The position numbers and the translations under genes were made by a program. From IMG/VR virus record IMGVR_UViG_3300012940_000008, positions 1 to 47,723 of that record: a stretch of DNA of 47,723 bases; one strand, given 5' to 3'. This document shows, in pieces, positions 1 through 47,723 of this stretch (positions are counted from its first letter, which is position 1; every line of letters begins with the position of its first letter). Source of the DNA: a virus. Lineage: Duplodnaviria; Caudoviricetes. The notes beneath the pieces were generated by a model. The model had not been told where the DNA came from and made no database searches. It saw only the letters and a list, made by a program, of their open reading frames with translations.

Positions 1-123
1 AAGGCCTGATCGTCGTTGGCGTCCCGCTCGAGGCCGACGACCCGCCCGATGGTGTCGAGCTGCTCTCCGGAGGAGGTGTCCAGCCATCGTTCGGTGAGGA
101 GCTGCCAAAGCGCATCCTCGAGC
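1..123. repeat. Left copy of 123-bp terminal direct repeat (circular assembly overlap)
   Basis: 1-123 (aaggcctgat...catcctcgagc) is identical to 47601-47723, and an ORF reads in frame across the junction. Confidence 0.97.
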
Positions 124-338
124 TGCTGGATCTCGTCGAGCTGGACGACGAGCGCCCCCTCGAGGAGCGGCTTCCGCTTGAATTGCTCGAGGAGCCGGTC
201 GACGCCCTCGAGGGCGTGAAGCCGCTTGTGGGCGAGCTCCTCGCCGACGCGGGGCGTCTCCGGGTCGTAGTCCTGGGTCCCACCGTCTCCGCCGCCCAGG
301 CCGACGAAGAGCTCGTCGAGCTCGTATGCGAAAGGCAT
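1..338 (-). CDS. 5' part of baseplate wedge protein (DUF2612-like), continues at 47600-47222
   Basis: ATG at 338: MPFAYELDE...RLLEQFKRKPLLEGALVVQLDEIQQLEDALWQLLTERWLDTSSGEQLDTIGRVVGLER; the GxQLDxIGxxVG motif is typical of this family; in frame across the junction. Confidence 0.8.
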   Translation of the reverse strand, partial: MPFAYELDELFVGLGGGDGGTQDYDPETPRVGEELAHKRLHALEGVDRLLEQFKRKPLLEGALVVQLDEIQQLEDALWQLLTERWLDTSSGEQLDTIGRVVGLERDANDDQA

Positions 339-350
339 CCCGTCCTCCGG

Positions 351-1457
351 TCAGGGGGCGATGTTGTAGGCGACCTCGATTCCCGCGGCGAGGACCTCGA
401 AGTCCATCGCCTTCGAGCCCGCCGCTTCGATCCAGATCCGCGTGAAGGTGTCCTGCTTGGCGAAAGCCCCGTCGAGCTTCGCCCATTCGCTTTTGACGAG
501 GTTCCCCATCGGACCGTAGGAGTCGCCGCCGCCGATCTCGAGGTGGGCCATCGGGGCGGGGCCGCCGCCGTCCGCGGGGAGCCAATTGTTCCCGTAGTCG
601 TCGGAGCATTCGACCCACCCGAAGACCTCGTCGCCGGGGCTCGTGTAGAGGATCATCCAGAAGCGGATCGCCGTTGCGTTCTCGAGGTCGACGAGGGTCC
701 GGAAGCCTTCGTGCCCATTGTAGCCGGGGGAGCAATCGGGGAATTCACCGGAGCCGTTGGAGACCTTCACCATGAAGGGGGAGCCGCCGTGCTGGTGATC
801 GGCGGTCCAATGGGCAACGGTCCGCGCCCGGGCAAATTCGGTGTCCGTCGTTCCGCCGCCTCCGGTGGCGTAGAGCCGCCCGAAGCCGTCGAGGGCGAGA
901 CCGATCCCGTAGTCGACCCGGATGTAGTTCCCGCTCATGTAGAGGCCGCCGCCGGAGACGGCGACGCCGCCCACGTTGGAGCTCGAGGCGAGATCCAGGG
1001 CGTGCTTGTGGTCGGAGCGAGAGAAGGCGAGGGAGGTCCCCGCGCTGTTGGAGGAGCCGCCCGCGGAAGTCGGGGCACCCCAGGCGATCAAATGCTTGTG
1101 GTCGTAGCGGGAGGCCTCTCCGCCGGTGCCCGGTGTCGCCGCGACGCCCGCCTGGAGCGTCGAGGGGGTCTGATTCGAGAGGACGACGCCGCCACCGCCG
1201 CCCGCGGCGAGCTGGGCGAGGGTGTAGGAGGTCCCCGCCGCCATCGTGGCGTCCCGGAAGCGGAGGGCGCCGGTCTCCCGCCAGATCACCACCTCCTCGT
1301 CGTCCGTCCCCGCCTCCTGGAAGAAGACGCCCGCCACGTCGATCCCGTCTTCCTGGGGAGTGAGGGCCTTCGGGAACGGGCGCCGCTGGCCCGCCTGCCC
1401 GCCGGTCGTCGAGTCTTCGTGCTTGTAGGGCCGAACGCGATCCGCCGGAGGTGCCAT
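351..1457 (-). CDS. Fibre-like structural protein
   Basis: 368 aa, Gly-rich, repeated SRxDHKH motifs (ASRYDHKH, FSRSDHKH) and GGGL/GIGL beta-repeats typical of phage fibres; within late operon. Confidence 0.6.
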   Translation of the reverse strand: MAPPADRVRPYKHEDSTTGGQAGQRRPFPKALTPQEDGIDVAGVFFQEAGTDDEEVVIWRETGALRFRDATMAAGTSYTLAQLAAGGGGGVVLSNQTPSTLQAGVAATPGTGGEASRYDHKHLIAWGAPTSAGGSSNSAGTSLAFSRSDHKHALDLASSSNVGGVAVSGGGLYMSGNYIRVDYGIGLALDGFGRLYATGGGGTTDTEFARARTVAHWTADHQHGGSPFMVKVSNGSGEFPDCSPGYNGHEGFRTLVDLENATAIRFWMILYTSPGDEVFGWVECSDDYGNNWLPADGGGPAPMAHLEIGGGDSYGPMGNLVKSEWAKLDGAFAKQDTFTRIWIEAAGSKAMDFEVLAAGIEVAYNIAP

Positions 1458-1514
1458 GCTCGAGGAGCTCCCAGGGCCCGGCGGAGCTCGAGGCGCCGCC
1501 GGGCCGGAGAGGGG

Positions 1515-3098
1515 TTAGATCGCGCCGAAGTCGGCGATCTGGACGTGGAGGTTGTTCGCCGCGTTGCCGAAGTGCTGGCATCCGAAGCCGACGCGGACGA
1601 CGCGACCGCTCGAGGGCGGGGTCGTGGCGAGGGCTCCCGCGGTGGCGGAGAGGAAGTATTCCGGGCCCGCGGTGACGCCGCTCTTCGTGGCGATGCCCTG
1701 GGTTACGACCTTGACCCGGGCGCCGCTGGCCGCCGCCTCCTGGGCGATGCCGACGACGTTCGCCCGGGCCTCCGCGGTGGAGGCCTTGACGACCTGCCCG
1801 GAGCCATTCAGGGCGACCACGTCGTAGGCGGCGAGGGCCTCGCCCGCGGTGAAGTCCTCGAGGGTGGCGTAGGAGAAGAGACCGGAGCCGCCGCCGCCGC
1901 TGATGCCGTGCTGGGTCAGGACCTCGAGCCCGCCTCCCGGGGTGGCGTAGAGGGTTTGGCCCTTCTTGACCTGGAGCTTGCCCCCGACGCCCGCCGCGTC
2001 GAATTCGAGGGAGCCATCGCCGGAGAGCTCCACGTCGAGGGTCGCCGCCGCCCCGTTGGCAATCGCGCCACCGCCGGAGAGACCGGCGCCCGCGGTGACG
2101 GTGTGGGCGTGCGAGCCCTCCGCCACCGATCCGCCGATGGTCCCGAAGATGACGCCGAGCTGCTTCGCGTTGCCCGTCCCGGCGAGCTCGAGGCCCGGAT
2201 TCAAGCTCTTCAGCTCGACGTGCAGGGTCACGTCCCCGGAGAGAGCTCCGCCACCGGAGAGGCCCTCGCCCGCGATCACCTGCCGGGAGGTCGGGACCGC
2301 GCCGACGTTCGCCGCGGTGTGCGTGTGGTTGCCCGCGGCGACCTGGGTCGAGCCGGTGCCAATGTCCGCCGAGAGGGTGACGCTCCCGCCGTTGGCGACG
2401 GAGCCGCCGCCGGAGAGGCCGGTCCCCGCGGTGATCGTGTGGGCGTGGTTGCCCGCCGCCGCCGTCGAGGAGGTCGTGCCGAGCTGGACGTTGAGCGTGT
2501 TCCCGGAGCGGGAGAGGGCGGTCCCGGCGACGATGCGATCCGCGCCGGTGAATTCCGTAAACTGGATCGCCGTCGTCCCGGGCGTGATCGCCGTGTCCGG
2601 CGAGGTGAGGACCCACGTCGAATTCGCCCGGGCCGCCGCGCCCTCCCGGACGTGGTACGAGGCGCCGGAGATCAGGTCGTCCTCCGCCCGCACCATGGGG
2701 ACCGCGGCCCCCTTCCACAAGTAGATCCCATTGTCCGCGTGCGCCGCCCCGCCCGCGCCCGCCTGATGGAAGACGCCCACGCGGTCGTTGAGGGCCATCG
2801 CCACGCCGTCGACGTTCGCGCCGGGGGCGGCGAGGTTGATCGCTGCCTGGGGCGCCATGACGCGGACGGGCTCCCGGACGGCGAAGCCGGAGAGCTTCCC
2901 GTCGACGTAGGCCTTCGTCGCCGCGTGCGCCCCCTGGGTCGGAGCGCCGACGTTGGAGATCGGGAGGTTGTTCGCGTCGAAGGCGGAGCCGGACGCATTC
3001 GAGGCCTTGAAGCTGGGGGCCTCGAGGGCGTCCGCGCTGTCGATTTCGGTCGGGTATCCGCGCGTCGAATGCCGGACGAGGGGCTTCACGTTTGCCAT
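1515..3098 (-). CDS. Head/tail fibre protein with HxH repeats and C-terminal cement-like domain
   Basis: 527 aa; AATKAYVD motif, three AGxGLSGGG repeats with GNHAH/GNHTH/GSHAH; C-terminal AGEALAAYDVV...VVGIA...VKVVTQG domain. Confidence 0.7.
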   Translation of the reverse strand: MANVKPLVRHSTRGYPTEIDSADALEAPSFKASNASGSAFDANNLPISNVGAPTQGAHAATKAYVDGKLSGFAVREPVRVMAPQAAINLAAPGANVDGVAMALNDRVGVFHQAGAGGAAHADNGIYLWKGAAVPMVRAEDDLISGASYHVREGAAARANSTWVLTSPDTAITPGTTAIQFTEFTGADRIVAGTALSRSGNTLNVQLGTTSSTAAAGNHAHTITAGTGLSGGGSVANGGSVTLSADIGTGSTQVAAGNHTHTAANVGAVPTSRQVIAGEGLSGGGALSGDVTLHVELKSLNPGLELAGTGNAKQLGVIFGTIGGSVAEGSHAHTVTAGAGLSGGGAIANGAAATLDVELSGDGSLEFDAAGVGGKLQVKKGQTLYATPGGGLEVLTQHGISGGGGSGLFSYATLEDFTAGEALAAYDVVALNGSGQVVKASTAEARANVVGIAQEAAASGARVKVVTQGIATKSGVTAGPEYFLSATAGALATTPPSSGRVVRVGFGCQHFGNAANNLHVQIADFGAI

Positions 3099-3107
3099 GG
3101 GGTCCTC

Positions 3108-3572
3108 TTACTTCTGCGGGGCCTTCTGGACGAGGCGCCCCGCGTCTTCGTGGAAGGTGTACGCCAGCGGGTCGATCTTGTGTTTGGCGGCGAGCTCCTC
3201 GAGGAGCCGCCGCTCCTTGCCCTTCTCCTCGCCGACGACGCGGACGAGATCCCGGACCTGCCTCCCCAGCTCCGCGATCTGCGCGTTCGCCTGGGCGGCG
3301 ATCAGCTCCGTCTCCTGCTCGAGCTTGGCGATCCGGAGCTCGCCCAGGGCCCGCCGGGAGACGAGGCGCGAGAGGCGAAGGGCGTCGAGCTCGTCGAGCT
3401 GGACCTCCGCGGGGGCGGGCGCCGGGAGGATCGTCGCCTCCTCGCCGCCGATGGGCGCCGCGGGCTCGAGCTCGCCGCGCCGCTGGGCTTCGATCTGCGC
3501 GGCGATGTGCGGCGGGATCGTCGGCGGGAGCTTCTTCGGCCTGGGCTTCCTGGTCTTCTTCGTCTCTGCCAT
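3108..3572 (-). CDS. Hypothetical coiled-coil protein (possible fibre chaperone)
   Basis: 154 aa, tightly packed in operon, heptad-like helical segment. Confidence 0.6.
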   Translation of the reverse strand: MAETKKTRKPRPKKLPPTIPPHIAAQIEAQRRGELEPAAPIGGEEATILPAPAPAEVQLDELDALRLSRLVSRRALGELRIAKLEQETELIAAQANAQIAELGRQVRDLVRVVGEEKGKERRLLEELAAKHKIDPLAYTFHEDAGRLVQKAPQK

Positions 3573-3576
3573 GGTT

Positions 3577-4170
3577 CTACGTTCCCCGGTGGATGAAGAT
3601 CGCCGTCGAAGGGGCGACCCGGAGCGCCGTCGTCGAGACGGCGATCCCGATTGTCTGATGGTCGACCTCGACGCCCGGGAGGGCGGTCGGCGGAGTGTCC
3701 GAAGGTCGACCGTTGGCGCCGACGTAGTAGACCTTACCCGGAATCAAGCCCGAAAGGACGCTCCGGAGGATCAAGCCGCTCCGGACCCGCGCCGTCGACC
3801 CGTCGACACTCTCGACGATGCCGACCGCTGGCATCCTGGCGGGGTTCGTCGGGTCCGCCCGGGCGATCAAGCCGTCCGGGAGGACGCAAGCGGCATCCCC
3901 CGCCAGCACGCCGACCTCGCACGCTCCGGAGAAGGCGGAGAGGTCGCCCGCCTCGAGCTCGTCGGAGAGGTCCCGGACCCGTTGCTCGAGGCTTCCAGGA
4001 GTCGACCCATCGGCGAGGCCCACCGCCCGGCAAACGGCGATCAGGGCGTCCGCCAGGACGTTGTATTCCTGGGCCCGGAGGTAGTTGACCAGATTCTCCG
4101 CGGCCCGGAGGTCCGCCTTGACCCGTCCGATGCTGTCGTCGGTGCGTGTCGGGAGCCGGACGAGGGCCAT
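3577..4170 (-). CDS. Structural protein with cement/fibre-like C-terminal domain
   Basis: 197 aa; C-terminus (ARAD...AVGIV...GLIPGKVYYV...TPP...IGIA) resembles the C-terminus of 1515-3098. Confidence 0.6.
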   Translation of the reverse strand: MALVRLPTRTDDSIGRVKADLRAAENLVNYLRAQEYNVLADALIAVCRAVGLADGSTPGSLEQRVRDLSDELEAGDLSAFSGACEVGVLAGDAACVLPDGLIARADPTNPARMPAVGIVESVDGSTARVRSGLILRSVLSGLIPGKVYYVGANGRPSDTPPTALPGVEVDHQTIGIAVSTTALRVAPSTAIFIHRGT

Positions 4171-4174
4171 CGGG

Positions 4175-5395
4175 TTAGACCTCCACCGTGATCCGCCCGG
4201 AGTCCAGGTCGATCAGGTCCCGCACGTCGGCGGGGAGGTTGACGGTCCCGGTCGGGTTGGCGGCGAAGCCTGCCCGGATCTCGAGCACGTCGACGACGCC
4301 CGCGACCTCGAAGATCGGGACGTGGAGGTGGGAGAGGCGCAAAGGGGCGCCGACCCGGAGCTCCCGATCACCCCAGGCCGCCACCGCGTCCCGGACGAGC
4401 TGGGGCGAGACGAAGGGGTCCCACCCCTTCGTCGCGTCGACCTCGAGGGAGATCCGGAGGTAGGCGGCGAGGACGTTCGGGCGGGAGAAGCGGACGGTCC
4501 GATCCTGCCCGGTGGAGTCCTGGACGGTGACGACCTCCGAGCCATGCGACCGGATGCCCGCGGGCTTCGTCCGCCAGATCACCGCGCCGATCTCCTCCGC
4601 CGGGACCGCGGAGCCGTCGAGCGTCCCGTCGTGGACGAGGGCCTCGAAGGAATGCGGCGGGAGGCCCAGGGCGTCCGGGAGGTCCGTCTCGTTCTCGAAG
4701 AGCGTCGCCGAGACGACGCCCACGCCATCGGGCGAGTCTTCGCCGATGCGGAGGAGGGCGACCCGGATCGCGTCCAGGGTGGAGCCGCTCGAGAGCGTCA
4801 GCTCCTCGAGGCGCCGCCGCCGGAGCTCCTCGTCGGTCTCGACGGCGAGGCCCTCCACCGCGTCCGCCGCGTTGACGACGGAGGTCCACCCGGAGACGGG
4901 GGTGGCGATCACCGTCAGGGTCCCCGCCGCCGCCGGGACCGGGCCGGTCGCCTCCGCCTCGAAGAGTGCGGGGATCGTCGCCGCGGAGCTCGTCGCGTTG
5001 ACCACCTCGTCCCGATTCCGGAAGCGGACGGAGGGCCGCCCGGAGACGGAGGCGACGAGGGCGCCCGCGGGATAGGTCCCGGGCTGGACGGTGATCGTGG
5101 CGGTGACGACGGAGCGGGTCGCCGGGCGGCGGAGCGTGCCCGTCAGGGAGGCGAGAGCGGTCAGGGCCTCGTCCGATGCCCGGTCCGGGTCCGTCGAGGC
5201 GTAGACGCTCGAGGCGAGCTCCCAAAGCTCCCGGATCTTCGAGGCGGTGATCCCGATGATCTGCCCGAAGACGGAGGCGCTCGAGAGGTTGATCGAGGGC
5301 CCGAAGACCTCCCGGTAGTCCGCCTCGAGCTCCGCCTTGATCTCCTCGAGCGTCTTCGCCCGGAAGCCGGAGGGGGTGAGTCCGTAGGTTGCCAT
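4175..5395 (-). CDS. Baseplate J / Mu gp47-like wedge protein
   Basis: 406 aa; YGLTPSGF start, GW..V.N, ETDEELRRRR, GLPPHS, KPAGI..G and VRFSRP motifs. Confidence 0.9.
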   Translation of the reverse strand: MATYGLTPSGFRAKTLEEIKAELEADYREVFGPSINLSSASVFGQIIGITASKIRELWELASSVYASTDPDRASDEALTALASLTGTLRRPATRSVVTATITVQPGTYPAGALVASVSGRPSVRFRNRDEVVNATSSAATIPALFEAEATGPVPAAAGTLTVIATPVSGWTSVVNAADAVEGLAVETDEELRRRRLEELTLSSGSTLDAIRVALLRIGEDSPDGVGVVSATLFENETDLPDALGLPPHSFEALVHDGTLDGSAVPAEEIGAVIWRTKPAGIRSHGSEVVTVQDSTGQDRTVRFSRPNVLAAYLRISLEVDATKGWDPFVSPQLVRDAVAAWGDRELRVGAPLRLSHLHVPIFEVAGVVDVLEIRAGFAANPTGTVNLPADVRDLIDLDSGRITVEV

Positions 5396-5398
5396 GCG

Positions 5399-5776
5399 CT
5401 AGACCTCGACGATGAAGGGCCCGTCGTTCCGCGTGGAGACGATCCCCCCGTCCTCGAGGACGGCGGAGAAGTCGAGGCGGAGGGTCCGGGAGGTGGGGTC
5501 GAAAGAGCTCGAGAGCTCCGGGACGGAGGAGATCCCGGGCGTCTCGAGGGCGATCCGCCGATACATGCTCGAGAGGACGAGGGGGTTCGGTCGCTTGATC
5601 CCCAGGATCTCCCGGAAGTAGGGGATGCCCTCCCGCTGGTCCAGGAACCATTCGCCCAGGAAGAAGCGGAAGCGGGTCCGGAGGTGCTGGGCGACCGCCT
5701 CTCCCTCCCGGACGACGGCGAGATCCCCGTCCTCGAGGACGAGATCGCCGGTCTCCGCCGAAATTGCGAGGTCCAT
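5399..5776 (-). CDS. Baseplate wedge / sheath initiator (gp25- or gp46-like)
   Basis: 125 aa; AVAQ..RTR...FLGEWFLD..EGIPY...ILG motif; between spike and baseplate J. Confidence 0.85.
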   Translation of the reverse strand: MDLAISAETGDLVLEDGDLAVVREGEAVAQHLRTRFRFFLGEWFLDQREGIPYFREILGIKRPNPLVLSSMYRRIALETPGISSVPELSSSFDPTSRTLRLDFSAVLEDGGIVSTRNDGPFIVEV

Positions 5777-6457
5777 CTAGTCCGCCTTCACCTTCGAGGA
5801 GCCCAGGGAGCCGGGCCAGCTCGAGAAAAGGGTGCCGAGGGCGGTCTTCAGGGCGGCCCCGCCGTCGTTGGCGATGGGCGTCCATCCCTGGATCGCCGTT
5901 TTCAGGTCGTCGAGGGCCTTCTCCACCTTCGAGGCGAGGGCCACCGCGTCCGCGGGCGCCTCCGACCCCAGCCGGACCTCGCCCGCGGTGACGTGGATCT
6001 CCGCCCCGCCCTTCTTCCCCAGGACGAGGTGATCGGGGTGGGCGCCGCTGGCCTCTTCGGTGAGGAGCCCGGGGATCGCCACCGCGCCGCCGAGGTGATG
6101 AAGCCGCGTGTCGCCCGGGTCGGCGACCTCTCCGGTCCGCCTCCATTCCGCATGGGCCCGCATCGTGAAGAGGACGAGGACCGGGTCGCCCTCGAGGACC
6201 GGAAGCGTCAAGCGGAAGCCGCCCGCGGCGAGGAAGACGAGGGGGACCGCGGGGAGGATCGGGAGCTCCTCGAGGACGGTCCCTCCGTCCGCGGTCCGGA
6301 TCGGGCGCTTCAACGTCGGGAGCACGTCGGCGACCTGCTTCGTCGCGTCGTAGCGGACGACCCGCCCGGGCAGGGCGGTGTAGAGGCCCTCGAGCCGGGC
6401 CTCCATCGCCGCCCGGACGACGCCCGCGAGCGTCTTCTCCTCGAGCCTTCCGGACAT
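5777..6457 (-). CDS. Baseplate central spike (Gp138-like)
   Basis: 226 aa; TALPGRVV.YD, VP..F...GGF.LT.PV..GD.VLV.F and R.HHL..AVAIPG motifs. Confidence 0.85.
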   Translation of the reverse strand: MSGRLEEKTLAGVVRAAMEARLEGLYTALPGRVVRYDATKQVADVLPTLKRPIRTADGGTVLEELPILPAVPLVFLAAGGFRLTLPVLEGDPVLVLFTMRAHAEWRRTGEVADPGDTRLHHLGGAVAIPGLLTEEASGAHPDHLVLGKKGGAEIHVTAGEVRLGSEAPADAVALASKVEKALDDLKTAIQGWTPIANDGGAALKTALGTLFSSWPGSLGSSKVKAD

Positions 6458-6466
6458 CCTGGCCTC

Positions 6467-7659: not shown

Positions 7660-7662
7660 CGG

Positions 7663-8337: not shown

Positions 8338-8338
8338 C

Positions 8339-9925: not shown

Positions 9926-9934
9926 CGTTCCCTC

Positions 9935-39251: not shown

Positions 39252-39266
39252 TCGACGCTTCACCGG

Positions 39267-39302
39267 AGCCCCCGGAGGCCGCCGCGCCGCCGGGGGCTTT
39301 TT
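39267..39302 (+). terminator. Rho-independent terminator
   Basis: agcccccgg...ccgggggct stem followed by T-run. Confidence 0.7.
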
Positions 39303-39325
39303 CCCGCCTCGAGGAGCTCCGTCCG

Positions 39326-41464
39326 ATGGAAAACCTACCCGCCCCTACCGTGGCCCCCCATGTGGCCTTCGATTGGGAGACCTTCCTCATGCGCCCGGGC
39401 CTCCTGGCCCCGCCGCCGGTGTGTCTCACCTGGGGGACGGAGGCCGATCACCGGATCGCCCATGCCCGGGACCTCTCCGCCTACGACGTGGCCTCCGCCC
39501 TCGAGCTCGAGGGGGAGAAGCGGATCGTCGGCGCCCACCTCGCCTTCGATCTCGCCGTCGCTTGCGCCCGGTGGCCGGAGCTCGTCGAGCCGGTCTTCGC
39601 CGCCTACGAGGCCGGGCGATGCCGGGACGTGCTGATCGATCAGAAGCTCGTCGACAACGCCCACGGTCGGCTGGGTGGGTTCAAGCGGTCGGATGGCGTC
39701 TTCGTCGAGTATCGCTACTCCCTCGCCGACGTGGAGCGCCGGGTCCTCGAGCGGGACCGCTCCGCGGAGAAGAAGGGGACCGACGCTTGGCGCGTGCGCT
39801 ATGCCGAGCTCTTCGCCGTCCCGCTCGAGCTGTGGCCCCCCGACGCCCGCCGCTACGCCCTCGAGGATACGGAGGGCGCCTCCGCGGTCTACACCCGCCA
39901 GGAGGAGGCCTACTCCGCCGTCCTCGTCGACGCCCCGCGGCAGGCCTACGCCTCCTGGGCCCTCTACCTGATCACCTGCTGGGGCCTCCGGACGGACCCG
40001 GACAACATCGAGGTCTTCCGCCGGGAGGTGGAGGACGAATTTCACCGCTGCCGGAAGCTCCTCGTCGAAGCGGGGCTGGTCCGCGACGGGATCAACCCGA
40101 AGACCGGGCGCCCCTTCCCGAAGAGCCAGCAAGGGAGCCGGGACACGAAGGCGGCCCAGGCCCGCATGGCGGCGGTCATGGCGGCCCAGGGGAAGCGCCC
40201 GAAAATGACGGACGGCGGGGAGAAGAGCGAGCCGCAGATCTCCCTCGACGCGGACGCTTGCGCCGATTCCGGGGACGAGATCCTCGAGGCCTACGCCGAG
40301 CTCTCGAGCATCGGGAGCGTCGTCAAAGACCATATCCCCGCGCTTCTCCGGGGCGTCGAGGCGCCGATCCAGCCTGATTTCAACTCGCCGCTTGAAACCG
40401 GGCGGACGAGCTGCAAGGGACCCGACACGGGCCGAAACAAGCCGCGGACGTGGTGCCCGAAGCAAGGCCTCGAGTGCATCGCCGTCGACGCGGAGCGCCG
40501 ATGGTGTATCCGTTGCGGCGAGCTCCTCCCGAAGTCCTACGGCTTCCAGGTCCAGAATCCGCGGAAGAAGGGCCCCCTCCGGGAATGCTTCGTCGCCCGC
40601 CCGGGGATGGTCTACGTCGACGCGGACTATACGGGCCTCGAGCTCTGCACGGTCGCCCAGGTCTGCATCCTGGCGGTCGGCTTCTCCGAGCTGGGGAACG
40701 CTCTCAACGGGGGGCTGGACGCCCACCTCGCCCTCGCCGCGGAGCTCCTGGGGATCTCCTACGAGGAGGCGAAATATCGGAGGGGCCAGGGCGACAAAGA
40801 GGTCGGGAACGCGAGGCAGACGGCGAAGGTCGCCAACTTCGGATTCCCCGGGGGCCTGGGCGTCGACGGCTTCCTCGCCTTCGCAAAAGCGCAATACGGG
40901 GTCGTCCTCTCCTACGAAGAGGCCGCCGCCCTGAAAGCGGGTTGGAAGCGCCGCTGGCCCGAATTCGACGCCTATTTCGATTGGATCAAGGGGCTGGGGG
41001 AGCCGATCCACCTCGTCCAGTTTTTCACCGGGCGGGAGCGGGGGATGTGCTCCTTCACCCAGGCCGCCAACGGCTTTTTCCAGGCTCTAGGCGCGGACGT
41101 GGCGAAGCGCGGTCTCTGCGCCGTCTCCCGGGCCTGCTACGCCGACCGGAGCTCCGTCCTCTTCGGGACCCGCCCGGTCAACTTCATCCACGACCAGATC
41201 GTCGCCGAGACGAAGGAGGAGAGGGAGCACGCCCACCGCGCCGCCTTCGAGCTGGCCCGGATCATGGTCGACGCGGGGAACGAGCTCCTCCCGGACGTGC
41301 CGGTCCGGTGCGTCCCCGCCCTCTCGAAGCATTGGACAAAGGACGCCGCCGCCGTCTTCGACGCCCCTCCCGCGGACGGCGGGCTCCTCGTCCCCTGGGA
41401 TCTCGCCCACGCGGGACGCTGGAAGGTCTGGAACGAGGACGGGGAGATCGTGAAATGGAAGTGA
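39326..41464 (+). CDS. DNA polymerase, family A, with 3'-5' exonuclease
   Basis: Exo FDWET, HLAFD, YALED; ETGRTS; motif A DADYTGLEL; motif B RQTAKVANFG; motif C FIHDQ. Confidence 0.92.
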   Translation: MENLPAPTVAPHVAFDWETFLMRPGLLAPPPVCLTWGTEADHRIAHARDLSAYDVASALELEGEKRIVGAHLAFDLAVACARWPELVEPVFAAYEAGRCRDVLIDQKLVDNAHGRLGGFKRSDGVFVEYRYSLADVERRVLERDRSAEKKGTDAWRVRYAELFAVPLELWPPDARRYALEDTEGASAVYTRQEEAYSAVLVDAPRQAYASWALYLITCWGLRTDPDNIEVFRREVEDEFHRCRKLLVEAGLVRDGINPKTGRPFPKSQQGSRDTKAAQARMAAVMAAQGKRPKMTDGGEKSEPQISLDADACADSGDEILEAYAELSSIGSVVKDHIPALLRGVEAPIQPDFNSPLETGRTSCKGPDTGRNKPRTWCPKQGLECIAVDAERRWCIRCGELLPKSYGFQVQNPRKKGPLRECFVARPGMVYVDADYTGLELCTVAQVCILAVGFSELGNALNGGLDAHLALAAELLGISYEEAKYRRGQGDKEVGNARQTAKVANFGFPGGLGVDGFLAFAKAQYGVVLSYEEAAALKAGWKRRWPEFDAYFDWIKGLGEPIHLVQFFTGRERGMCSFTQAANGFFQALGADVAKRGLCAVSRACYADRSSVLFGTRPVNFIHDQIVAETKEEREHAHRAAFELARIMVDAGNELLPDVPVRCVPALSKHWTKDAAAVFDAPPADGGLLVPWDLAHAGRWKVWNEDGEIVKWK

Positions 41465-41931
41465 TCCACAAGCTGATGGCAATCGACCCGGGGACGAAGG
41501 CGACGGGCTGGGCTCTCTTCCGCCTGCAGCGCCTCGTCGCCGCTGGGCTCTACCGGGGGAAGCACGCCGCCGAGACCATCGGCCAGATCCAGGCCGCCCC
41601 GATCTACGACCTCGACGTGCTGATCGTCGAGCGCCCCCAGGTCTACGACCGCCACCGGACGAAGGGCGACCCCAACGCCCTGATCCCCCTCGCCATGATC
41701 GGCGGGGCCGCGGCGGGCGTGCATGGGTGGGCGGAGCTCCGGGCCCCGCACCCGAACGAATGGAAGGGGGCGATCTCGAAGGAGATCCACCACCCCCGCA
41801 TCCTCGCCGAGCTCCGCCCGGAGGAGCTCGCCGTTGTGGAGGCGATGAAGGGCGTCCCCGCCTCCCTCCGCCACAACGTCCTCGACGCCATCGGCCTGGG
41901 CCTGTGGGGCCTGGGAAGGAGCCCGCGATGA
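41455..41931 (+). CDS. RuvC-like Holliday junction resolvase
   Basis: AIDPG...TGWA, IVE.P, P.EWK and HN..DAIG.G motifs. Confidence 0.8.
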   Translation: MEVIHKLMAIDPGTKATGWALFRLQRLVAAGLYRGKHAAETIGQIQAAPIYDLDVLIVERPQVYDRHRTKGDPNALIPLAMIGGAAAGVHGWAELRAPHPNEWKGAISKEIHHPRILAELRPEELAVVEAMKGVPASLRHNVLDAIGLGLWGLGRSPR

Positions 41932-42692
41932 AGTGTCCCGCCTGCCATTCTCTCACCGTCAACGCCCGGACCGGCGAGTGTTCCACCTGCTACGGATCGA
42001 ACGGGGTCGACCTCGAGGCCCGCCGCCGCGAGTCCCAGGCGATCCGGGATCGGCTCCTCGAGGGCTTCGGCGAGGTCCCCCGGGTCTACTCCGGGCGGGT
42101 CTGCGGGGCGTGCGAGGGGCGCCGGACCGTCTACGGGGAGCGGTGCGAAAACTGCGACGGGACGGGCCGCCATCCGAAGGAGCCCGCCGCCGCGGCGAAC
42201 GAGGCGCCGAAGAAGCCGGGCGTCTTCGCTGGCCTCGAGCTCCTCCGCTCCTCCTTCGAGGAGCCGACCGGCGAGGAGCTCCGGCGCCTCGAGCTCGAGG
42301 CCGCGGCGGACGAGCTCGCCCAGCTCCGCGCCGAGGGCGAGACGATCCTGGTCCTCGTCGAGAGCCCCTTCGCCGGGAAAAACCGGGACGAGCTCGAGCG
42401 GAACCAGCTCTACCTCCGCGCCGCCCTCCGCGATTGCCTCGAGCGTGGAGAAGCCCCCTTCGCCTCCCATGGGCTCTACACGCTCCCGGGCGTCCTGGAC
42501 GACACGAAGCCCGACGAGCGGCGGAAGGGGATCGAGGCGGGGCTGGCCTGGGGCCGCCGCGCCCACCTCTCCGCGGTCTACGTCGACCTGGGGATCTCCC
42601 CCGGGATGATGGAGGGGATCGCCAGGGCGGAGAAGGAAGGCCGCCCGGTGGAGCGCCGATCCCTCCTCGAATGGGCCCGCCGCCTCGCCTGA
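41928..42692 (+). CDS. Zn-ribbon protein fused to nucleoside-deoxyribosyltransferase-like (DUF4406-like) domain
   Basis: CPAC, CSTC, CGAC, CENCDGTG; C-terminal VESPFAG...EAPFASH.LY...LDD...ER..G...G..W...VY.D.GIS.GM. Confidence 0.7.
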   Translation: MKCPACHSLTVNARTGECSTCYGSNGVDLEARRRESQAIRDRLLEGFGEVPRVYSGRVCGACEGRRTVYGERCENCDGTGRHPKEPAAAANEAPKKPGVFAGLELLRSSFEEPTGEELRRLELEAAADELAQLRAEGETILVLVESPFAGKNRDELERNQLYLRAALRDCLERGEAPFASHGLYTLPGVLDDTKPDERRKGIEAGLAWGRRAHLSAVYVDLGISPGMMEGIARAEKEGRPVERRSLLEWARRLA

Positions 42693-42718
42693 TTTCGGAC
42701 AATCGGACCGATCACCCC

Positions 42719-42747
42719 TTGTGCTCCGGGCGGAGCCTCGTTAGGCT
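42719..42747 (+). promoter_or_regulatory. Promoter with degenerate operator
   Basis: TTGTGC-N17-TAGGCT; GTGCTCC-N4-GGAGCCT at 42721-42738. Confidence 0.6.
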
Positions 42748-42780
42748 CCCCCGGTTTTCGTTGCTCGAAAGGAGCCTGCC

Positions 42781-43872
42781 GTGAACGTGAAGAAGGAGAG
42801 GGCGCCGGAGGTGTGCGCCGCCCTCCGCTGCAAAGACGAGCCGAGCCATACCGTCCCGGGCCTGTGCTGGGATGGCGTCCCGGAGGACGAGCGGGTCCAC
42901 CTCTGCCCGCGTCACGCGGAGGTCGCCCGGGTCGATTTCGGTCTGGACGAGGTTCCGGGCTCCCTCCGCCCGCTCCGCGGGAGCATCCCCGCCGACGAGG
43001 CCGCGGAGCTGATCGCCCAGGGGACGAAGGGTTGCGGGGGCGACGCTTGCGGGCTGCCCTGTACCCGCTGCGGGTCCGAATACGGGGGGAGGTGCTCCGT
43101 CCCCGATTGCGACGGCGAGCGCCGTTGCGAGTGTCCCCCGGGCAACGGCGAGGACGAGATCGTCAATCGCGCCGTCGCCGCCAACTTCGGCGAGGCCCAC
43201 AAGCCGAAGGAGGAGCCGAAGGGGAACGCCCTCGACGAGCTCCCCGCGGAGGCCCTCGCCGTCGTCGAGGAGACGACGGGGGAGACGCCGATGGGCGTCC
43301 CCGCCGCCGAGCTCGCCCAGGAGGCGGAGGAGGCCCGCGGCGCCCTCGAGGCCGCCCGGGAAATGCAGATCGAGACCCAGGACGATCTCGAATTCGCCGC
43401 CACCGTCCTGGGCGAGACGAAGAAGAAGGCGAAGGAGCTCGAGGCCCGGCTGAAGGAGATCACCGCGCCGCTTCGGGCCGCGGAAAAGAGCGTCCGCGAT
43501 CTCTTCCGCCCCGCCCTCGATTTCTACGGGACGCTGGAGAAGGAGCTCAAAGCCCGGATCGGCGAGGTGAAGCTCCGCCAGGAGGAGGAGAATCGCCGGG
43601 CGATGGAGGCCGCCGCCGCGGCCCATGCCGCGGGCGACGCCGCCGGGACCTCCCAGGCCCTCGCCACCGTCAAGAATCTGGCGAGCGTCAAGGGTGTGGG
43701 CGCCCGTCTCGCCTGGGATTTCGAGATCGAGGACGAGAGCCAGCTCCCCCGGGACTACCTGATGCCCAACGTCCGGGCGATCTCCGACGCGGCGAAGGGC
43801 GTCGAGACGCCCCCGGCGATCCCGGGCGTCCGCTGGTTCCAGAAGCCTATTGTCTCCGCCCGGTCTTCGTAG
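42781..43872 (+). CDS. Cys-rich N-terminus plus coiled-coil protein (Gam/Gp157-like C-terminus)
   Basis: RBS AAGGAG; many Cys/His; coiled coil; WDFEI.D...LPR.YL.P...IPGV motif common in phage recombination-region proteins. Confidence 0.65.
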   Translation: MNVKKERAPEVCAALRCKDEPSHTVPGLCWDGVPEDERVHLCPRHAEVARVDFGLDEVPGSLRPLRGSIPADEAAELIAQGTKGCGGDACGLPCTRCGSEYGGRCSVPDCDGERRCECPPGNGEDEIVNRAVAANFGEAHKPKEEPKGNALDELPAEALAVVEETTGETPMGVPAAELAQEAEEARGALEAAREMQIETQDDLEFAATVLGETKKKAKELEARLKEITAPLRAAEKSVRDLFRPALDFYGTLEKELKARIGEVKLRQEEENRRAMEAAAAAHAAGDAAGTSQALATVKNLASVKGVGARLAWDFEIEDESQLPRDYLMPNVRAISDAAKGVETPPAIPGVRWFQKPIVSARSS

Positions 43873-43921
43873 GACACTCGAGGCGGGTTGTCCCTGGCAG
43901 GCGGCCCTCCTTTCGTGCGGG

Positions 43922-43952
43922 GCCCCCGGAGCGATCCTCCGGGGGCTTTTTT
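43922..43952 (+). terminator. Rho-independent terminator
   Basis: gcccccgga-N7-tccgggggc followed by T6. Confidence 0.85.
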
Positions 43953-43966
43953 ATTTGGGAGCGAAC

Positions 43967-44368
43967 ATGCGAGCCGTCCTCTCCGTCCTGGCCTTCCTGT
44001 GGGCCCTGCCGATCACCGCCGCGGGCTTCCTCCTCGCCGTCCTGGGAGGATGCCGCCTCCTGGGGCTCCGGGAGGGTGCCCTCGATTTCCTCGCCCCGCG
44101 CCGCGGCCCCTGGGCGTGGTTTTTCGCCCGCCGCTGGGCCGCTGTGAACCTGGGCGACGTGATCGTCTACGGGACGCCCGAAGAGGCCGCGGACCCGGTG
44201 ACGCGGGCCCACGAAAGGGAGCACCAGCGGCAGGTCCGCCGCCTGGGTCTCCTCCACCTCGTCCTCTACTTCGTGATCTGCCCCCTGGCGTGCTGGGCCT
44301 ACGGGGTCGGGGTCTACCGGGATCAACCGGCGGAGCTCGCCGCCCGCCGCGCCGCGGGCCAGGAGTAG
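43967..44368 (+). CDS. Membrane protein with HExxH metallopeptidase-like motif
   Basis: N-terminal hydrophobic helix; A.NLG.VI, AHEREH.RQ, then second hydrophobic helix and distal E..A. Confidence 0.7.
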   Translation: MRAVLSVLAFLWALPITAAGFLLAVLGGCRLLGLREGALDFLAPRRGPWAWFFARRWAAVNLGDVIVYGTPEEAADPVTRAHEREHQRQVRRLGLLHLVLYFVICPLACWAYGVGVYRDQPAELAARRAAGQE

Positions 44369-44459: not shown

Positions 44460-44885
44460 CTACTGCAGGACGAGGGCGAGAATCAACGCGACGACCGCTC
44501 CGCCCCCGGCGCCGACCGCTCCCCAGGTCCAGCGGTCGCCGCGGGCCTCGAGGAGCTCGAGCTGGGTCTCCGACCGCTCCCGGCTCTCCCTGGCGAGGGC
44601 GTCGGCGAGGCGGGCGGCGGAGGCCTCCGCCTCGAGGTGGAGGGCCTTCGTCTCCTCGAGGGCCTGGGTCCGTAGCTCGAGCTCCTGATCGGCGAGCTCG
44701 AGCCGCTCGAGGAGCTTCGGGCGGGTCTCGAGCGCCTCGAGGGCCTTCCGGGAGGTCTCGAGGTCCAGCCAGATCCCCTTCTCGCCGGTCGACGGATGGA
44801 GGAGGAGCGTCGGCGGGGACGCCGCCAGGGCCGCGGAGGGCGTCAGGAGAGACGCCAGGACGACGAGGGAGAGGAGCCGGGTCAT
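44460..44885 (-). CDS. Spanin-like protein (signal peptide, coiled coil, C-terminal TM)
   Basis: ATGA coupling; MTRLLSLVVLASLLTPSAALA; Leu/Glu coiled coil; C-terminal GAVVALILALVLQ; last gene of lysis cassette. Confidence 0.6.
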   Translation of the reverse strand: MTRLLSLVVLASLLTPSAALAASPPTLLLHPSTGEKGIWLDLETSRKALEALETRPKLLERLELADQELELRTQALEETKALHLEAEASAARLADALARESRERSETQLELLEARGDRWTWGAVGAGGGAVVALILALVLQ

Positions 44886-45244
44886 TCCTTCGTCTCCGCC
44901 ACGAAGGCCCGCCAACGGGCCTCGAGCTCTTCGTCGGAGAGGTTCCGGATCTCCTCCTCGAGCGCCTTCGTCTCCGCCTCGAGGACCTTCCGCCCCTGGG
45001 CCGCGGTGCGGGCGTGCTCCTCGAGCTCCCGGACCTTCGCCGCTCGAGCTGCCCGGTCCTGGGCCTCCCGCTGGGCCGCCTCGAGCTCCTCGAGGACCCG
45101 GGCGTCCTGGGCCCGCCGCTTCTTCCGGAGCCGCTCCTGGGCGGAGCTGTGGCCCAGGAGAGCGAAGGCGAGGACGGCGAGCCCGACGAGGACCGCCCAG
45201 GTCCCCGCGCCGAGCTCCCGGAGCTTCTTCCAGATCGCCTTCAT
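44882..45244 (-). CDS. Inner-membrane spanin-like protein
   Basis: N-terminal TM (TWAVLVGLAVLAFALLG) then long charged coiled coil. Confidence 0.65.
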   Translation of the reverse strand: MKAIWKKLRELGAGTWAVLVGLAVLAFALLGHSSAQERLRKKRRAQDARVLEELEAAQREAQDRAARAAKVRELEEHARTAAQGRKVLEAETKALEEEIRNLSDEELEARWRAFVAETKE

Positions 45245-45582
45245 GGCGTCCCGCCCTGGGGCGGAGCTCCGGCGGCGACCGCCTTCGTCTTCGCGGCGAT
45301 GTACGCCCGCACCCCCTTGTAGATCGCCGCCGAGAGGCCGCCCGCCAGGGCGAACCAAATCAGGCGACCGGCGAGGCCCGTCCCCATGCCCACCGGGACC
45401 GGGAGGTCGTCGGCGAAGCCGAAGAGGGCGCCGACGAGGATCGGATGGGCGAGGATGGTCCGGTGGTAGAAGCGACGCCACCCGGACCGGGAGGGGCCGA
45501 CCCCCCGGGCGATCACCTCGCCGACGATGGCGAGGAAGCAACCGACCGCCAGGAAAGAGAGAAGGTCCGAAAGCGTGACCAT
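45241..45582 (-). CDS. Putative holin
   Basis: 113 aa with three hydrophobic segments and basic C-terminus, right after endolysin. Confidence 0.65.
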   Translation of the reverse strand: MVTLSDLLSFLAVGCFLAIVGEVIARGVGPSRSGWRRFYHRTILAHPILVGALFGFADDLPVPVGMGTGLAGRLIWFALAGGLSAAIYKGVRAYIAAKTKAVAAGAPPQGGTP

Positions 45583-45590
45583 GGCGTGAC

Positions 45591-46079
45591 CTACCTTCCC
45601 GCCCGCTGCAAGCGGGCCCGAACCTGCCGCCGGAGCTCGTCCATATCGAGGTCCGGGCAGGTCTTGTGTTTGCCGTGCTCCGTCTCCCGGTGGCCCAGGA
45701 CGTTTTCGACCGGGACCCCGTAGGCGAGAGCCTTCCCGACGATCCAGTCGATCAGGGTGGAGAGCTGGCGCGTCGAGTATTTGCCGCCCTTCCCGATCAG
45801 GCAGATCCCCAGGCCCGAAGCGTTGAAGCCGTAGGCATGGGCGCCGACCTCCTCGTCGGTGTTCCCGTCGCCGTCGAGGTCTCGCCCGGGGAGGAGCTTC
45901 CCGTCGTGCTCCGGGTCGGGGCCGGTCCGGAGGTGGGCCGCGGTGGGGTAGGCGTTCCCGACGACCGCGTTGTAGCCGATCCCGTTCATCCCCCGCTCCC
46001 GATGCCAGGAGTCGATCAGGGCGACGTTGCCGAAGGGCGAGTCCGAACAATGGACGACGATGTGGGTGATCTTCCGCAT
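45591..46079 (-). CDS. Endolysin, N-acetylmuramoyl-L-alanine amidase (Amidase_2, T7 lysozyme-like)
   Basis: IVVHCS, I..WH..RG...IGY, GAHA.G.N, GICLIG, GHRE and K.CP motifs. Confidence 0.93.
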   Translation of the reverse strand: MRKITHIVVHCSDSPFGNVALIDSWHRERGMNGIGYNAVVGNAYPTAAHLRTGPDPEHDGKLLPGRDLDGDGNTDEEVGAHAYGFNASGLGICLIGKGGKYSTRQLSTLIDWIVGKALAYGVPVENVLGHRETEHGKHKTCPDLDMDELRRQVRARLQRAGR

Positions 46080-46176
46080 GGGGTCGAGCTCCTCTCGAGA
46101 AGAAGGCTCCCCGCGGCGGGCCCGGCGGGAGTGCCGGGGGAACGGTCGGGCCCGCCTGGGCCCGCCGGGGGAAGGG

Positions 46177-46440
46177 CTATGCCGCGTTCCGGCGGAGGGC
46201 GTCGGCGATCTCTTTGCCCAGGTCGTCCCGGGCTTCGAGGCGAACGATCCGCCGGTCGTGGTCGGCGAGGACCTCCGGGATCTTGTCGAGCTTCGAGAGC
46301 TCCCGGCGGACGATGCCGACGATCAAGGTCCCCAGGAGGCCCAGGGAGCCGAAGACGGCGAGAAGGATCAGGCCGACAAACCATCCGGGGATGGCGTTCG
46401 GGTCGACGGAGACGGACGCGAGAAGGGCGAGCGGTCCCAT
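46177..46440 (-). CDS. Small single-TM coiled-coil protein (holin/antiholin-like)
   Basis: TAATG coupling to fibre gene; TM followed by DHDRRIVRLE. Confidence 0.55.
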   Translation of the reverse strand: MGPLALLASVSVDPNAIPGWFVGLILLAVFGSLGLLGTLIVGIVRRELSKLDKIPEVLADHDRRIVRLEARDDLGKEIADALRRNAA

Positions 46441-47201
46441 TAGTGCAGGTCCACCCACGCGGTCCCGTTGTAGACGCGGACCTTCTTTGTGGTGCGGTCG
46501 AAGTAGATCGCGCCCTCGTCCGCGGTGGCGGGCTGGTCCTGGGGGATCAGGCGGAAGGCCGCCTTCTGCGGGTTGTTCGTCGGGAAACCCGCTTCGGCCT
46601 GGACGCCATAGCCGCCGCTCGAGAAGCCGCGGACGCCGGGACCGTTGACGCCCGACCCCTGGACGCCGGGGCCCGTCCCCTTCCCGATGCCATGGGCGCC
46701 GAGTCCGTTCGTCCCGCCGCCGGTGAAGCGACCGCCCTCGCCCCCGTTGCCGGAGCTCCCGCCCTGCCCGGTGACGCCGATCCCCGCCGCGGTCCCTCCG
46801 GTGCCGAAGACGCCGGTCGCTCCGTTCGTCCCGGTGCCGTAGACGCCGACGCCGGTATCGGTCCCGTCGCCCGACCCGCGGACGCCCACGCCGCCGCCGT
46901 TCCCGACGCCATGGATACCGTCGTGATCGGCGATTTCCGCGGAGGAGTAGAGGCCGCGGAAGGCGATTTCAGGCGAAGCCCGGGAGGCGAAATTGATCCG
47001 CGCCTCGAGGTCCGTCCGACGCTCGTCGATCCAGCGAATCCACCGACCGACGAGGTTCTTCCACCAATTGAAATTCTGCGCGGGAGGGGCCTCCGCGGGG
47101 GACCAACCAGATTCCACGCGAGAGGCGGGCGGGGCGACGATGGCGGAGGCAGGGTCCGCGGGGTTCGTCGCCCAATCGGGGTATTCGCTGGGCTGGGGCA
47201 T
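46440..47201 (-). CDS. Baseplate-attached tail fibre
   Basis: N-terminal P.WA...SGW...E.PPAQ.FNW anchor motif; Gly-rich GVxG repeats; follows DUF2612-like gene. Confidence 0.75.
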   Translation of the reverse strand: MPQPSEYPDWATNPADPASAIVAPPASRVESGWSPAEAPPAQNFNWWKNLVGRWIRWIDERRTDLEARINFASRASPEIAFRGLYSSAEIADHDGIHGVGNGGGVGVRGSGDGTDTGVGVYGTGTNGATGVFGTGGTAAGIGVTGQGGSSGNGGEGGRFTGGGTNGLGAHGIGKGTGPGVQGSGVNGPGVRGFSSGGYGVQAEAGFPTNNPQKAAFRLIPQDQPATADEGAIYFDRTTKKVRVYNGTAWVDLH

Positions 47202-47221
47202 GGCGAGCGCCTCCTTACCTG

Positions 47222-47723
47222 CTAGGCGGTGACGCCCCCGAACCTACCACCGATTGTGGGATCGGTGACACTCCCGAAGCCGTGCGCCGGGTCGACCTCC
47301 ACCGCCGCCGAGCTCGAGAAGGTGAACGTCGTCGCCGGGTCGACGGCGAGGTACTCGAGGAGGACCCGGACGCCCGCCGCCGCCGCCCGCCGGAAGAGCC
47401 GCATGTAGAACGCGGGCGGGAGGGGGAGCGCCCGATCCAGGACCCGGATCAGGGCGGTGGCGTGCGTCGAGGGGCCCAGGTCGTCCGCGTCGAGGAGCTC
47501 GAAGCCCCCGGCGCCGAAGAGCTGGGTCGCCATGACGAGGAGCTGCTCGCCGGTCCCGCTCGAGCGGAGGGAGAGGATCTCCACCGCCAGGAGGAGGCGG
47601 AAGGCCTGATCGTCGTTGGCGTCCCGCTCGAGGCCGACGACCCGCCCGATGGTGTCGAGCTGCTCTCCGGAGGAGGTGTCCAGCCATCGTTCGGTGAGGA
47701 GCTGCCAAAGCGCATCCTCGAGC
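47222..47723 (-). CDS. 3' part of baseplate wedge protein (DUF2612-like), starts at 338
   Basis: In-frame continuation DDQAFRLLLAVEI...AAAGV...FTF...GFG...GG.F. Confidence 0.8.
   Translation of the reverse strand, partial: LEDALWQLLTERWLDTSSGEQLDTIGRVVGLERDANDDQAFRLLLAVEILSLRSSGTGEQLLVMATQLFGAGGFELLDADDLGPSTHATALIRVLDRALPLPPAFYMRLFRRAAAAGVRVLLEYLAVDPATTFTFSSSAAVEVDPAHGFGSVTDPTIGGRFGGVTA
47601..47723. repeat. Right copy of 123-bp terminal direct repeat
   Basis: Identical to 1-123. Confidence 0.97.

What the first reader, a model, noticed from the sequence alone, without database searches (positions are those of the whole stretch)
1..47600. Complete strand polarisation of CCGAG: no CTCGG found on the + strand
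Seen: I checked CTCG occurrences across the whole + strand and found none followed by G, whereas CCGAG is common in both arms (e.g. 2155, 5835, 10436, 13863, 23265, 23405). Base composition predicts roughly 110 per strand. Codon bias cannot explain it because the arms are transcribed in opposite directions and the codons switch accordingly: + strand genes write Leu-Gly as CTG/CTA-GG (23421, 26289, 31667, 41087) but use GCC-GAG freely, while - strand genes write Ala-Glu as GCG-GAG or GCC-GAA (12311-12326) but use CTC-GG freely. Established: Type III restriction enzymes cut only with two inversely oriented asymmetric sites, and T7 escapes EcoP15I because its CAGCAG sites all point one way. CCGAG, like CAGCAG, has adenine on one strand only. 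Inference: the genome has been purged of one orientation to escape an orientation-dependent host defence (Type III or Type ISP R-M, or an unknown system) targeting CCGAG. This predicts the specificity of a host system.
Basis: partly seen in the sequence, partly recalled or inferred. Interest (0 to 1): 0.88.

Follow-up and report, generated by a model that had tools for sequence, protein, structure and literature searches.

The report
Phage keeps restriction sites facing one-way
This uncultured 47.6-kb phage carries the word CCGAG 85 times on one DNA strand and never on the other, whichever way its genes point, and does the same for more than a dozen other short words, most likely to escape host restriction enzymes that cut only between oppositely oriented sites.

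Summary
Confirmed. CCGAG occurs 85 times on the + strand and CTCGG never, against 108 expected from synonymous-codon shuffles (minimum 88 of 300). The zero holds where genes run on either strand, so the bias acts on DNA, not on codons or RNA. The window is a complete myovirus-like phage with 19 one-strand-purged 4-7-mers (0 in 20 of 20 shuffled genomes; 5 in T7, 0 in Mx8) and 13-14 purged palindromes. Its closest relative (L006, about 72% nucleotide identity) keeps the CCGAG polarity (21:1) although most sites have turned over, and lacks several of the other purges. A published methylome lists ccgAg (m6A) as a tentatively assigned Type III specificity in Clostridium josui. Best reading: the T7/EcoP15I escape from enzymes that need inverted site pairs, repeated against many host specificities. 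Not shown: the host (Myxococcota is only a lead), the enzyme, or any cleavage. Type ISP and MANTIS-like systems give the same signature. The mechanism is known, and this scan has noted the same pattern in four reports on other phages. What this case adds is a clean DNA-level control and a motif matching a listed Type III site.

The parts
1..47600 (+). Genome-wide polarity: 85 CCGAG on +, 0 CTCGG; first site 2155, last 47308
1..47600 (.). 18 further one-strand-purged words (absent or nearly absent on + : reverse complement count): ACAG 2:36, AGAAC 1:13, CATCA 1:17, CGACT 2:43, GACTC 0:34, GACTT 1:28, ACCAGG 0:10, ACCCTC 0:15, CAGCCC 0:25, CCGGCC 0:25, CGGCGT 0:49, CGTGGG 1:18, TCGCGG 4:38, CGGCCTC 0:34, CGGCGCG 0:42, CGGCGCT 0:17, GCCCCGG 0:14, GCGGCCT 1:37
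1..47600 (.). 13-14 six-base palindromes at or near zero (e.g. CGGCCG 0/105, GCCGGC 0/82, GCGCGC 0/64, GACGTC 0/32, CGATCG 0/20) and 45 asymmetric word pairs depleted on both strands
351..22235 (-). Virion-morphogenesis block on the - strand (terminase, portal, protease, major head 14378-15316, sheath 11148-12461, tape measure, baseplate): 41 CCGAG and 0 CTCGG on + in 1-22300
23042..44368 (+). Early/replication block on the + strand (primase 23335-25635, exonuclease, helicase 36851-38725, family A DNA polymerase 39326-41464): 40 CCGAG and 0 CTCGG on + in 22301-44400
44460..47584 (-). Lysis block (amidase 45591-46079) and two further genes on the - strand: 4 CCGAG and 0 CTCGG on + in 44401-47600
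25908..26693 (+). Phage-encoded N6/N4 DNA methyltransferase (DPPY motif), 29% identical to Mx8 Mox; specificity unknown; not shown to be linked to the polarity
47601..47723 (+). 123-base repeat of 1-123 (circular assembly overlap); left out of all counts except

Best explanation
The phage lineage has lost every CTCGG from one strand by synonymous codon choice, so that all 85 CCGAG sites lie in direct repeat, which likely blinds a host Type III-like enzyme that methylates CCGm6AG on one strand and would cut only between inverted unmethylated sites. Shown: the polarity, its independence from gene direction, its persistence through site turnover in a relative, and a published Type III assignment of this motif in another bacterium. 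From established knowledge: Type III enzymes need inverted pairs, and T7 escapes EcoP15I this way. Inferred: that the host carries such an enzyme; and that the other polarised words record further orientation-dependent specificities (m6A or m4C) met in different host strains over time, each purged in whichever orientation was rarer or cheaper to lose, while palindromes and orientation-blind asymmetric sites had to be removed from both strands.
For: 0 observed vs 100 expected even when the null keeps all other purged words (minimum 88 of 25 samples; 55 and 45 expected in the two gene orientations). The same pipeline recovers the textbook control: T7 CAGCAG 0 vs 11 expected, reverse complement 36. 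No polarised word in 20 of 20 shuffled window genomes. L006: CTCGG 1 vs 24.9 expected (minimum 13 of 200), with only 5 aligned CCGAG sites shared, 13 private to L006 and 9 private to the window. Blow 2016 S3/S4 rows: ccgAg, Type III, m6A, 83.9% detected, M.Cjo17888ORFDP, match in brackets; ccgAgc Type III in two other species. Two more polarised words match Type III rows there, cacAg (CACAG 0, reverse 21) and accAgg (0, reverse 10); they read on the - strand while ccgAg reads on +, as expected if direction is arbitrary. The longer word CCCGAG, listed there as a Type IIG site, is gone from both strands (1/39 and 0/27). The genome is under heavy restriction pressure in general (13-14 palindromes purged). 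Adenine-free polarised words have a precedent in m4C Type III systems (PMC8259958).
Against: No host, no cognate mod-res locus and no cleavage data. The only ccgAg row is a tentative match in a clostridium, while the host lead is Myxococcota, where the Type III-associated nuclease domain PF19778 was found in only 12 of 301 genomes (one family, MAGs incomplete). Rusinov 2018 found no systematic strand-asymmetric avoidance of Type III sites, so a dozen or more Type III purges in one genome is not the usual outcome. The kept orientation is also depleted (85 vs 148), which a strict inverted-pair rule does not need; about 50 of the 63 missing sites are CCCGAG and ACCGAG. Ten further search strings drawn from the polarised words (agtc, gactc, ccgcga, cagccc, cccacg, gactt, agaac, tgatg, accct, and cgact) gave no Type III row in Blow S4. 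CGGC is only partly depleted on + (363 vs 596 expected), which looks graded rather than all-or-none. L006's genes are all on one strand, so it cannot by itself separate DNA from RNA effects.
Confidence: 0.68

Rival explanations
1. The same one-strand purge, but driven by a non-Type III hemimethylating system that prefers inverted pairs: Type ISP, or a MANTIS/BREX-related system with graded preference. This would suit the 6-7-base words and the partial loss of the kept orientation.
For: MANTIS preprint (10.64898/2026.09.23.753747, passages and section 10): inverted pairs restrict strongly, direct repeats weakly, and about 40% of virulent Pseudomonas phages show one-strand depletion of MANTIS sites. 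ISP enzymes also need inverted sites. 12 of the 19 polarised words are 6-7 bases; the kept CCGAG orientation is at 57% of expectation.
Against: The MANTIS sites described are 6 bases, whereas all eight one-base extensions of CTCGG are zero, so this motif is 5 bases, the length of the Type III row in Blow S4.
Confidence: 0.17
2. A direction-sensing process: sites are harmful only in one orientation relative to unidirectional replication, packaging or DNA injection (a polar block, or a defence that reads one strand as the DNA enters). One fixed direction, not site pairing, would then set the polarity.
For: Polarity never switches along the genome and has the same direction in L006. Many of the words missing from + share CGG.
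Against: The three words with literature Type III top strands point in both directions. The kept orientation is depleted, not enriched, unlike Chi-type signals (Chi behaviour recalled). The sets of polarised words differ between the window and L006, as expected of variable host specificities rather than of the phage's own machinery. Shared CGG can follow from overlapping words being cheaper to purge in the same direction (inference).
Confidence: 0.07
3. A single-strand-methylating Type IIG/IIL enzyme (MmeI/DrdV kind) with this or a longer specificity.
For: GCCGAG makes up 66 of the 85 sites and is recalled as the NmeAIII site (memory, not checked). Blow S4 lists cccgAg as IIG.
Against: The DrdV preprint states that Type IIL enzymes cut without regard to site orientation, which predicts loss from both strands; TCCGAG is polarised too (14 vs 0, 12.8 expected).
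Confidence: 0.05
4. Codon or codon-pair bias, mRNA-level selection (such as an RNase site), strand-specific mutation, or an assembly artefact.
For: I could not compare the assembly with independent reads, so a read-level check is open.
Against: The avoided sense-strand word flips with gene direction; cumulative GC skew follows gene direction and ends near zero; 91% of the genome is in intact reading frames; an independent assembly (L006) shows the same polarity.
Confidence: 0.02

Closest known systems
Phage T7 and EcoP15I (Type III): 36 CAGCAG sites all head-to-tail (PMC12707154, passages; recomputed)
   Same: An asymmetric, adenine-on-one-strand word is absent from one strand and common on the other in a lytic phage.
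   Different: About 100 missing sites instead of 11; genes run on both strands, so codon and RNA effects are excluded, which T7's one-strand layout does not allow; 19 polarised words against 5 in T7 by the same rules; host and enzyme unknown here.
M.Cjo17888ORFDP of Clostridium josui JCM 17888: Type III, m6A, ccgAg (Blow et al. 2016, PMC4752239, supplement rows)
   Same: Identical 5-base motif with the adenine at position 4, classed as Type III.
   Different: A tentative motif-to-gene match in a bacterium that is unlikely to host a 70% G+C phage; no link to this phage's host was tested.
MANTIS (BREX-related type 2) of Pseudomonas aeruginosa (bioRxiv 10.64898/2026.09.23.753747)
   Same: One-strand depletion of an asymmetric hemimethylated site in virulent phages.
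   Different: 6-base sites and a known host system there; a 5-base site, complete absence and many words here.
m4C Type III systems (Murray et al. 2021, PMC8259958)
   Same: Asymmetric 4-6(7)-base motifs without need for an adenine, a precedent for the three purely G+C polarised words.
   Different: None of the three purely G+C words appears in the two tables read; CAGCCC (0:25) fits the listed CARCCC.

Membership tests
T7-type one-strand escape from Type III R-M | Asymmetric 4-6-base word absent from one strand and present on the other, beyond codon bias | tested here: met
   85:0, expected 100-108; T7 control recovered; 0 of 20 shuffles give any such word
T7-type one-strand escape from Type III R-M | Bias is tied to the DNA strand, not to gene direction | tested here: met
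   0 vs 55 expected where genes are on -, 0 vs 45 where genes are on +
T7-type one-strand escape from Type III R-M | The word is a Type III specificity methylated on one strand | tested here: inconclusive
   ccgAg listed as Type III m6A, tentative match, other host; REBASE itself not available
T7-type one-strand escape from Type III R-M | The host encodes the cognate mod-res pair | tested here: inconclusive
   Host not identified: no exact spacer-like match among the listed hits for window 3001-22000 in 401 genomes of one phylum (only 2 candidates per genome scored, 345 weaker matches not listed); PF19778 in 12 of 301
T7-type one-strand escape from Type III R-M | Inverted pairs are cut, direct repeats are not | not testable with these tools
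   needs the enzyme
MANTIS / BREX-related type 2 escape | 6-base hemimethylated site | tested here: not met
   for CCGAG the unit is 5 bases; not excluded for the 6-base words
MANTIS / BREX-related type 2 escape | Graded effect: direct repeats weakly restricted, so the kept orientation is also thinned | tested here: inconclusive
   kept orientation 85 vs 148, but most of the deficit lies in longer words cleared from both strands
Type IIG/IIL (MmeI, DrdV) site avoidance | Orientation-blind cutting, hence loss from both strands | tested here: not met
   85 sites kept; orientation-blindness from passage
Chi/KOPS-type polar signal | Over-representation of the word in the favoured orientation | tested here: not met
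   85 vs 148 expected

The most novel reading that the evidence does not exclude
The 19 polarised words, including purely G+C 6-7-mers and a graded one-strand loss of CGGC, are the footprint of one undescribed family of orientation-sensing host defence with fast-changing specificity (m6A and m4C) in an uncultured, probably myxobacterial, lineage. The phage genome would then be a readable catalogue of that family's specificities, while sister phages that clear asymmetric words from both strands face orientation-blind systems instead.
Probability: 0.15. Interest if true: 0.8.

Novelty: new member of a known kind. Interest (0 to 1): 0.5.

Why it matters
It is an unusually clean natural case of site-orientation escape: two opposed gene blocks act as a built-in control that T7 lacks, and the effect is about ten times larger. 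A survey of phage genomes found no systematic one-strand avoidance of Type III sites (PMC6286503), so complete purges of a dozen or more words show that the strategy can dominate in some lineages. Practically, polarised words predict the specificities, and the orientation dependence, of defence systems in a host nobody has cultured, and give a fingerprint for matching this phage to a host methylome.

Tried and rejected
Degenerate-motif greedy discovery merged unrelated words and was dropped for exact words. CGGCCTC loses most of its signal once overlapping words are held fixed (expected 4.2), and the three GACT words may be one motif (GACTA is not depleted, 11/11), so 19 words are not 19 systems. 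A distant locus with reversed skew (L230, 12:1) is within its codon null (1 vs 4.4, minimum 1) and was rejected as a case of opposite polarity. L061 and L063 (0:6 each) were not tested against a null. No closer relative than L006 was found in 5 scans of viral contigs, 1 of metagenome contigs and 1 of genome contigs; L178 is the window's own contig. Isolated phages are distant (major head at most 36%, polymerase at most 28%). The endolysin search gave no usable host name. PADLOC scan of 26 small or early proteins found only the methyltransferase and a weak NUDIX hit; PHROGs and Pfam named no anti-restriction protein among 64 proteins. Literature searches for CCGAG with methyltransferase terms gave 0 papers and no listed paper containing the word (30 of 148 listed); a Myxococcus methylome search gave 1 unrelated review. 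A systematic comparison of the window with a full panel of published Type III and Type IIS/IIG sites was not completed, and neither was a read-level check of polymorphisms; both remain open.
Full report
What the window is. The window is a whole virus record of 47,723 bases classed as having direct terminal repeats, 100% complete, with bases 47601-47723 repeating 1-123. It is 70.6% G+C. A self-trained gene model genes covering 91%. PHROGs and Pfam show a contractile-tailed phage: terminase, portal, head and sheath genes on the - strand (351-22235); primase, methyltransferase, exonuclease, helicase and family A polymerase on the + strand (23042-44368); lysis genes on the - strand again. No integrase was named among the 64 proteins scanned, so it is probably lytic (inference).

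The observation. CCGAG occurs 85 times on + and CTCGG never. Shuffling synonymous codons among all genes, which keeps proteins and codon usage, gives 108 CTCGG (88-134 in 300 shuffles) and 148 CCGAG. The zero holds in all three blocks (expected 54.5, 47.7, 6.4). On the sense strand the avoided word flips: genes on + never write CTC-GGN (0 of 40 Leu-Gly pairs) although CTC is the main Leu codon (1094 of 1431), and genes on - never write GCC-GAG (0 of 60 Ala-Glu pairs) while genes on + do so 31 of 80 times. This excludes codon bias and any mRNA-level cause. Every one-base extension of CTCGG is zero, so the unit is the 5-mer. The kept orientation is also low (85 vs 148); most of that deficit is CCCGAG (1 vs 39) and ACCGAG (4 vs 16), and the gapped word GNCCGAG is low too (2 vs 50).

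It is one of many. With fixed rules (at most 7% of an expectation of 10 or more on one strand; at least 10 sites and 45% of expectation on the other; palindrome zeros held fixed), the window has 19 polarised words of 4-7 bases, T7 has 5 including the EcoP15I site (0 vs 11, reverse 36), Mx8 has 0, and 20 of 20 shuffled window genomes have 0. Holding all other purged words fixed, 18 of 19 keep an expectation of 8.5 or more with at most 4 observed, and 13 of 19 have an expectation of 5 or more in both gene orientations. Some overlap, so the number of underlying specificities is smaller, perhaps a dozen (inference). Three contain neither A nor T. In addition 13-14 palindromes are at or near zero and 45 asymmetric word pairs are depleted on both strands, while CTCGAG, GAGCTC, CCGCGG and GATC are above expectation.

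Relatives. The only close relative found is L006 (10.8 kb of the structural block; 71-73% nucleotide identity). It has CTCGG 1 vs 24.9 expected and CCGAG 21 in the same orientation; in the aligned part 5 CCGAG sites are shared, 13 are private to L006 and 9 to the window, so the polarity has survived turnover of most sites. L006 also lacks CGACT (0/6.8) and GACTT (0/4.5) but not ACAG (10/10.8), AGAAC (7/7.3), TCGCGG (17/15.8), CCGGCC (10/12.8) or CGGCGT (9/13.6), and it retains three palindromes that the window has lost: a shared old core plus lineage-specific purges. Among 21 more distant relatives analysed whole or nearly whole (major head 34-55% identical), none is polarised for CCGAG; 16 have no polarised 4-6-mer and the others 1, 1, 1, 3 and 6, against 13 for the window; five instead clear 27-46 asymmetric words from both strands. 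Of 80 loci only L006 is strongly skewed at 10 or more sites; of 51 further loci with 10 or more sites one was skewed and fell within its codon null.

Host. Not identified. Relatives lie in genome bins titled Myxococcaceae and Sorangium, but also Rickettsiales, Nodosilinea, Fibrobacter and Cellvibrionaceae (10 loci). The two Myxococcaceae bins also hold polymerase relatives at 46-47% over part of the protein, and five more genomes of that phylum hold head-gene relatives at 33-40%. No exact spacer-like match appeared among the listed hits for 19 kb of the window in 401 genomes of that phylum. Myxococcota is therefore a lead only. A Type III-associated nuclease domain was found in 12 of 301 of those genomes.

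Mechanism. Type III enzymes methylate one strand of an asymmetric site and cut only when two unmethylated sites are inverted; T7 escapes EcoP15I with 36 head-to-tail sites (PMC12707154, passages; PMC8259958, passages). Type ISP enzymes share the rule, and MANTIS has a graded form of it, with one-strand depletion in about 40% of virulent Pseudomonas phages (preprint, passages and section 10). Type IIL enzymes are said to cut regardless of orientation (preprint, passages); Type I BREX also methylates one strand (PMC11842806, passages), with orientation dependence untested. In the methylome survey of Blow et al. (PMC4752239; supplement rows only) ccgAg is a Type III m6A motif of Clostridium josui (83.9% detected, match given in brackets), and cacAg and accAgg, both polarised here, are Type III motifs of other species; ten other search strings gave no Type III row. 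The three matched motifs read on opposite strands (ccgAg on +, the other two on -), which fits pairing-dependent enzymes, for which either direction can be fixed, better than one polar process. m4C Type III systems (PMC8259958, tables) can account for adenine-free words. I therefore read the genome as the product of repeated purges: palindromes and orientation-blind sites from both strands, pairing-dependent sites from one. The polarity and its DNA-level nature are shown; the enzymes are inferred.

What does not fit neatly. Rusinov et al. saw no systematic strand-asymmetric avoidance of Type III sites (PMC6286503, passages). One strain is unlikely to carry a dozen Type III systems (own knowledge), so the reading needs exposure to many strains or a system with fast-changing specificity. 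CGGC is down to 363 of 596 expected on + and up on - (933 vs 803), partly but not wholly through the zeroed longer words, which hints at graded selection or older, decaying purges.

Novelty. The strategy is textbook, and four earlier notes of this scan describe it in other phages, one with about forty words (unchecked AI notes, not support). Searches turned up no paper on CCGAG polarity in a phage; the library lacks most subscription journals and REBASE, and bioRxiv supplements are closed, so the MANTIS site lists could not be compared. Verdict: real, strong and well controlled; a new member of a known kind; interest 0.5.

Noticed in passing
window 25908-26693 (+): Phage N6/N4 methyltransferase, 29% identical to Mx8 Mox. 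CTCGAG (316 vs 200 expected), GAGCTC (212 vs 155) and GATC (458 vs 269) are abundant here, whereas CTCGAG and GAGCTC are purged in several relatives; self-methylation could be why, or simply compensation for other purges.
   Followed up: partly
G012, G006, G014, G004, G005 (whole records): Related phages that clear 27-46 asymmetric 4-6-mers from both strands with almost no one-strand purge: the mirror-image strategy, pointing to hosts rich in orientation-blind systems.
   Followed up: no
G023 (whole record): Six polarised 5-6-mers, but 99% of its coding lies on one strand, so DNA-level and RNA-level causes cannot be separated.
   Followed up: no
G009 (whole record): TAATC 0 vs 12 expected, reverse complement 24: a single clean polarised 5-mer.
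   Followed up: no
L176 (phage T7): Besides the EcoP15I site, four more words pass the polarity rules in T7: CTGTTG 0:23, GAGCTT 0:17, GATTAC 0:13, GCAGCT 1:15; all T7 genes are on one strand, so codon-pair effects are not excluded.
   Followed up: no
window 1-47600: Runs of seven C or seven G are absent (0 vs 27 and 0 vs 14 expected).
   Followed up: no
L086 / G030:C1 462378-464177: A related provirus inside an 854-kb contig titled uncultured Myxococcaceae; its polymerase match comes in two pieces, as it does in G031.
   Followed up: no
window 28877-29577 and 22236-23041: Stretches without a called gene in my model; the second lies between the divergent gene blocks and may hold promoters or the origin.
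   Followed up: no
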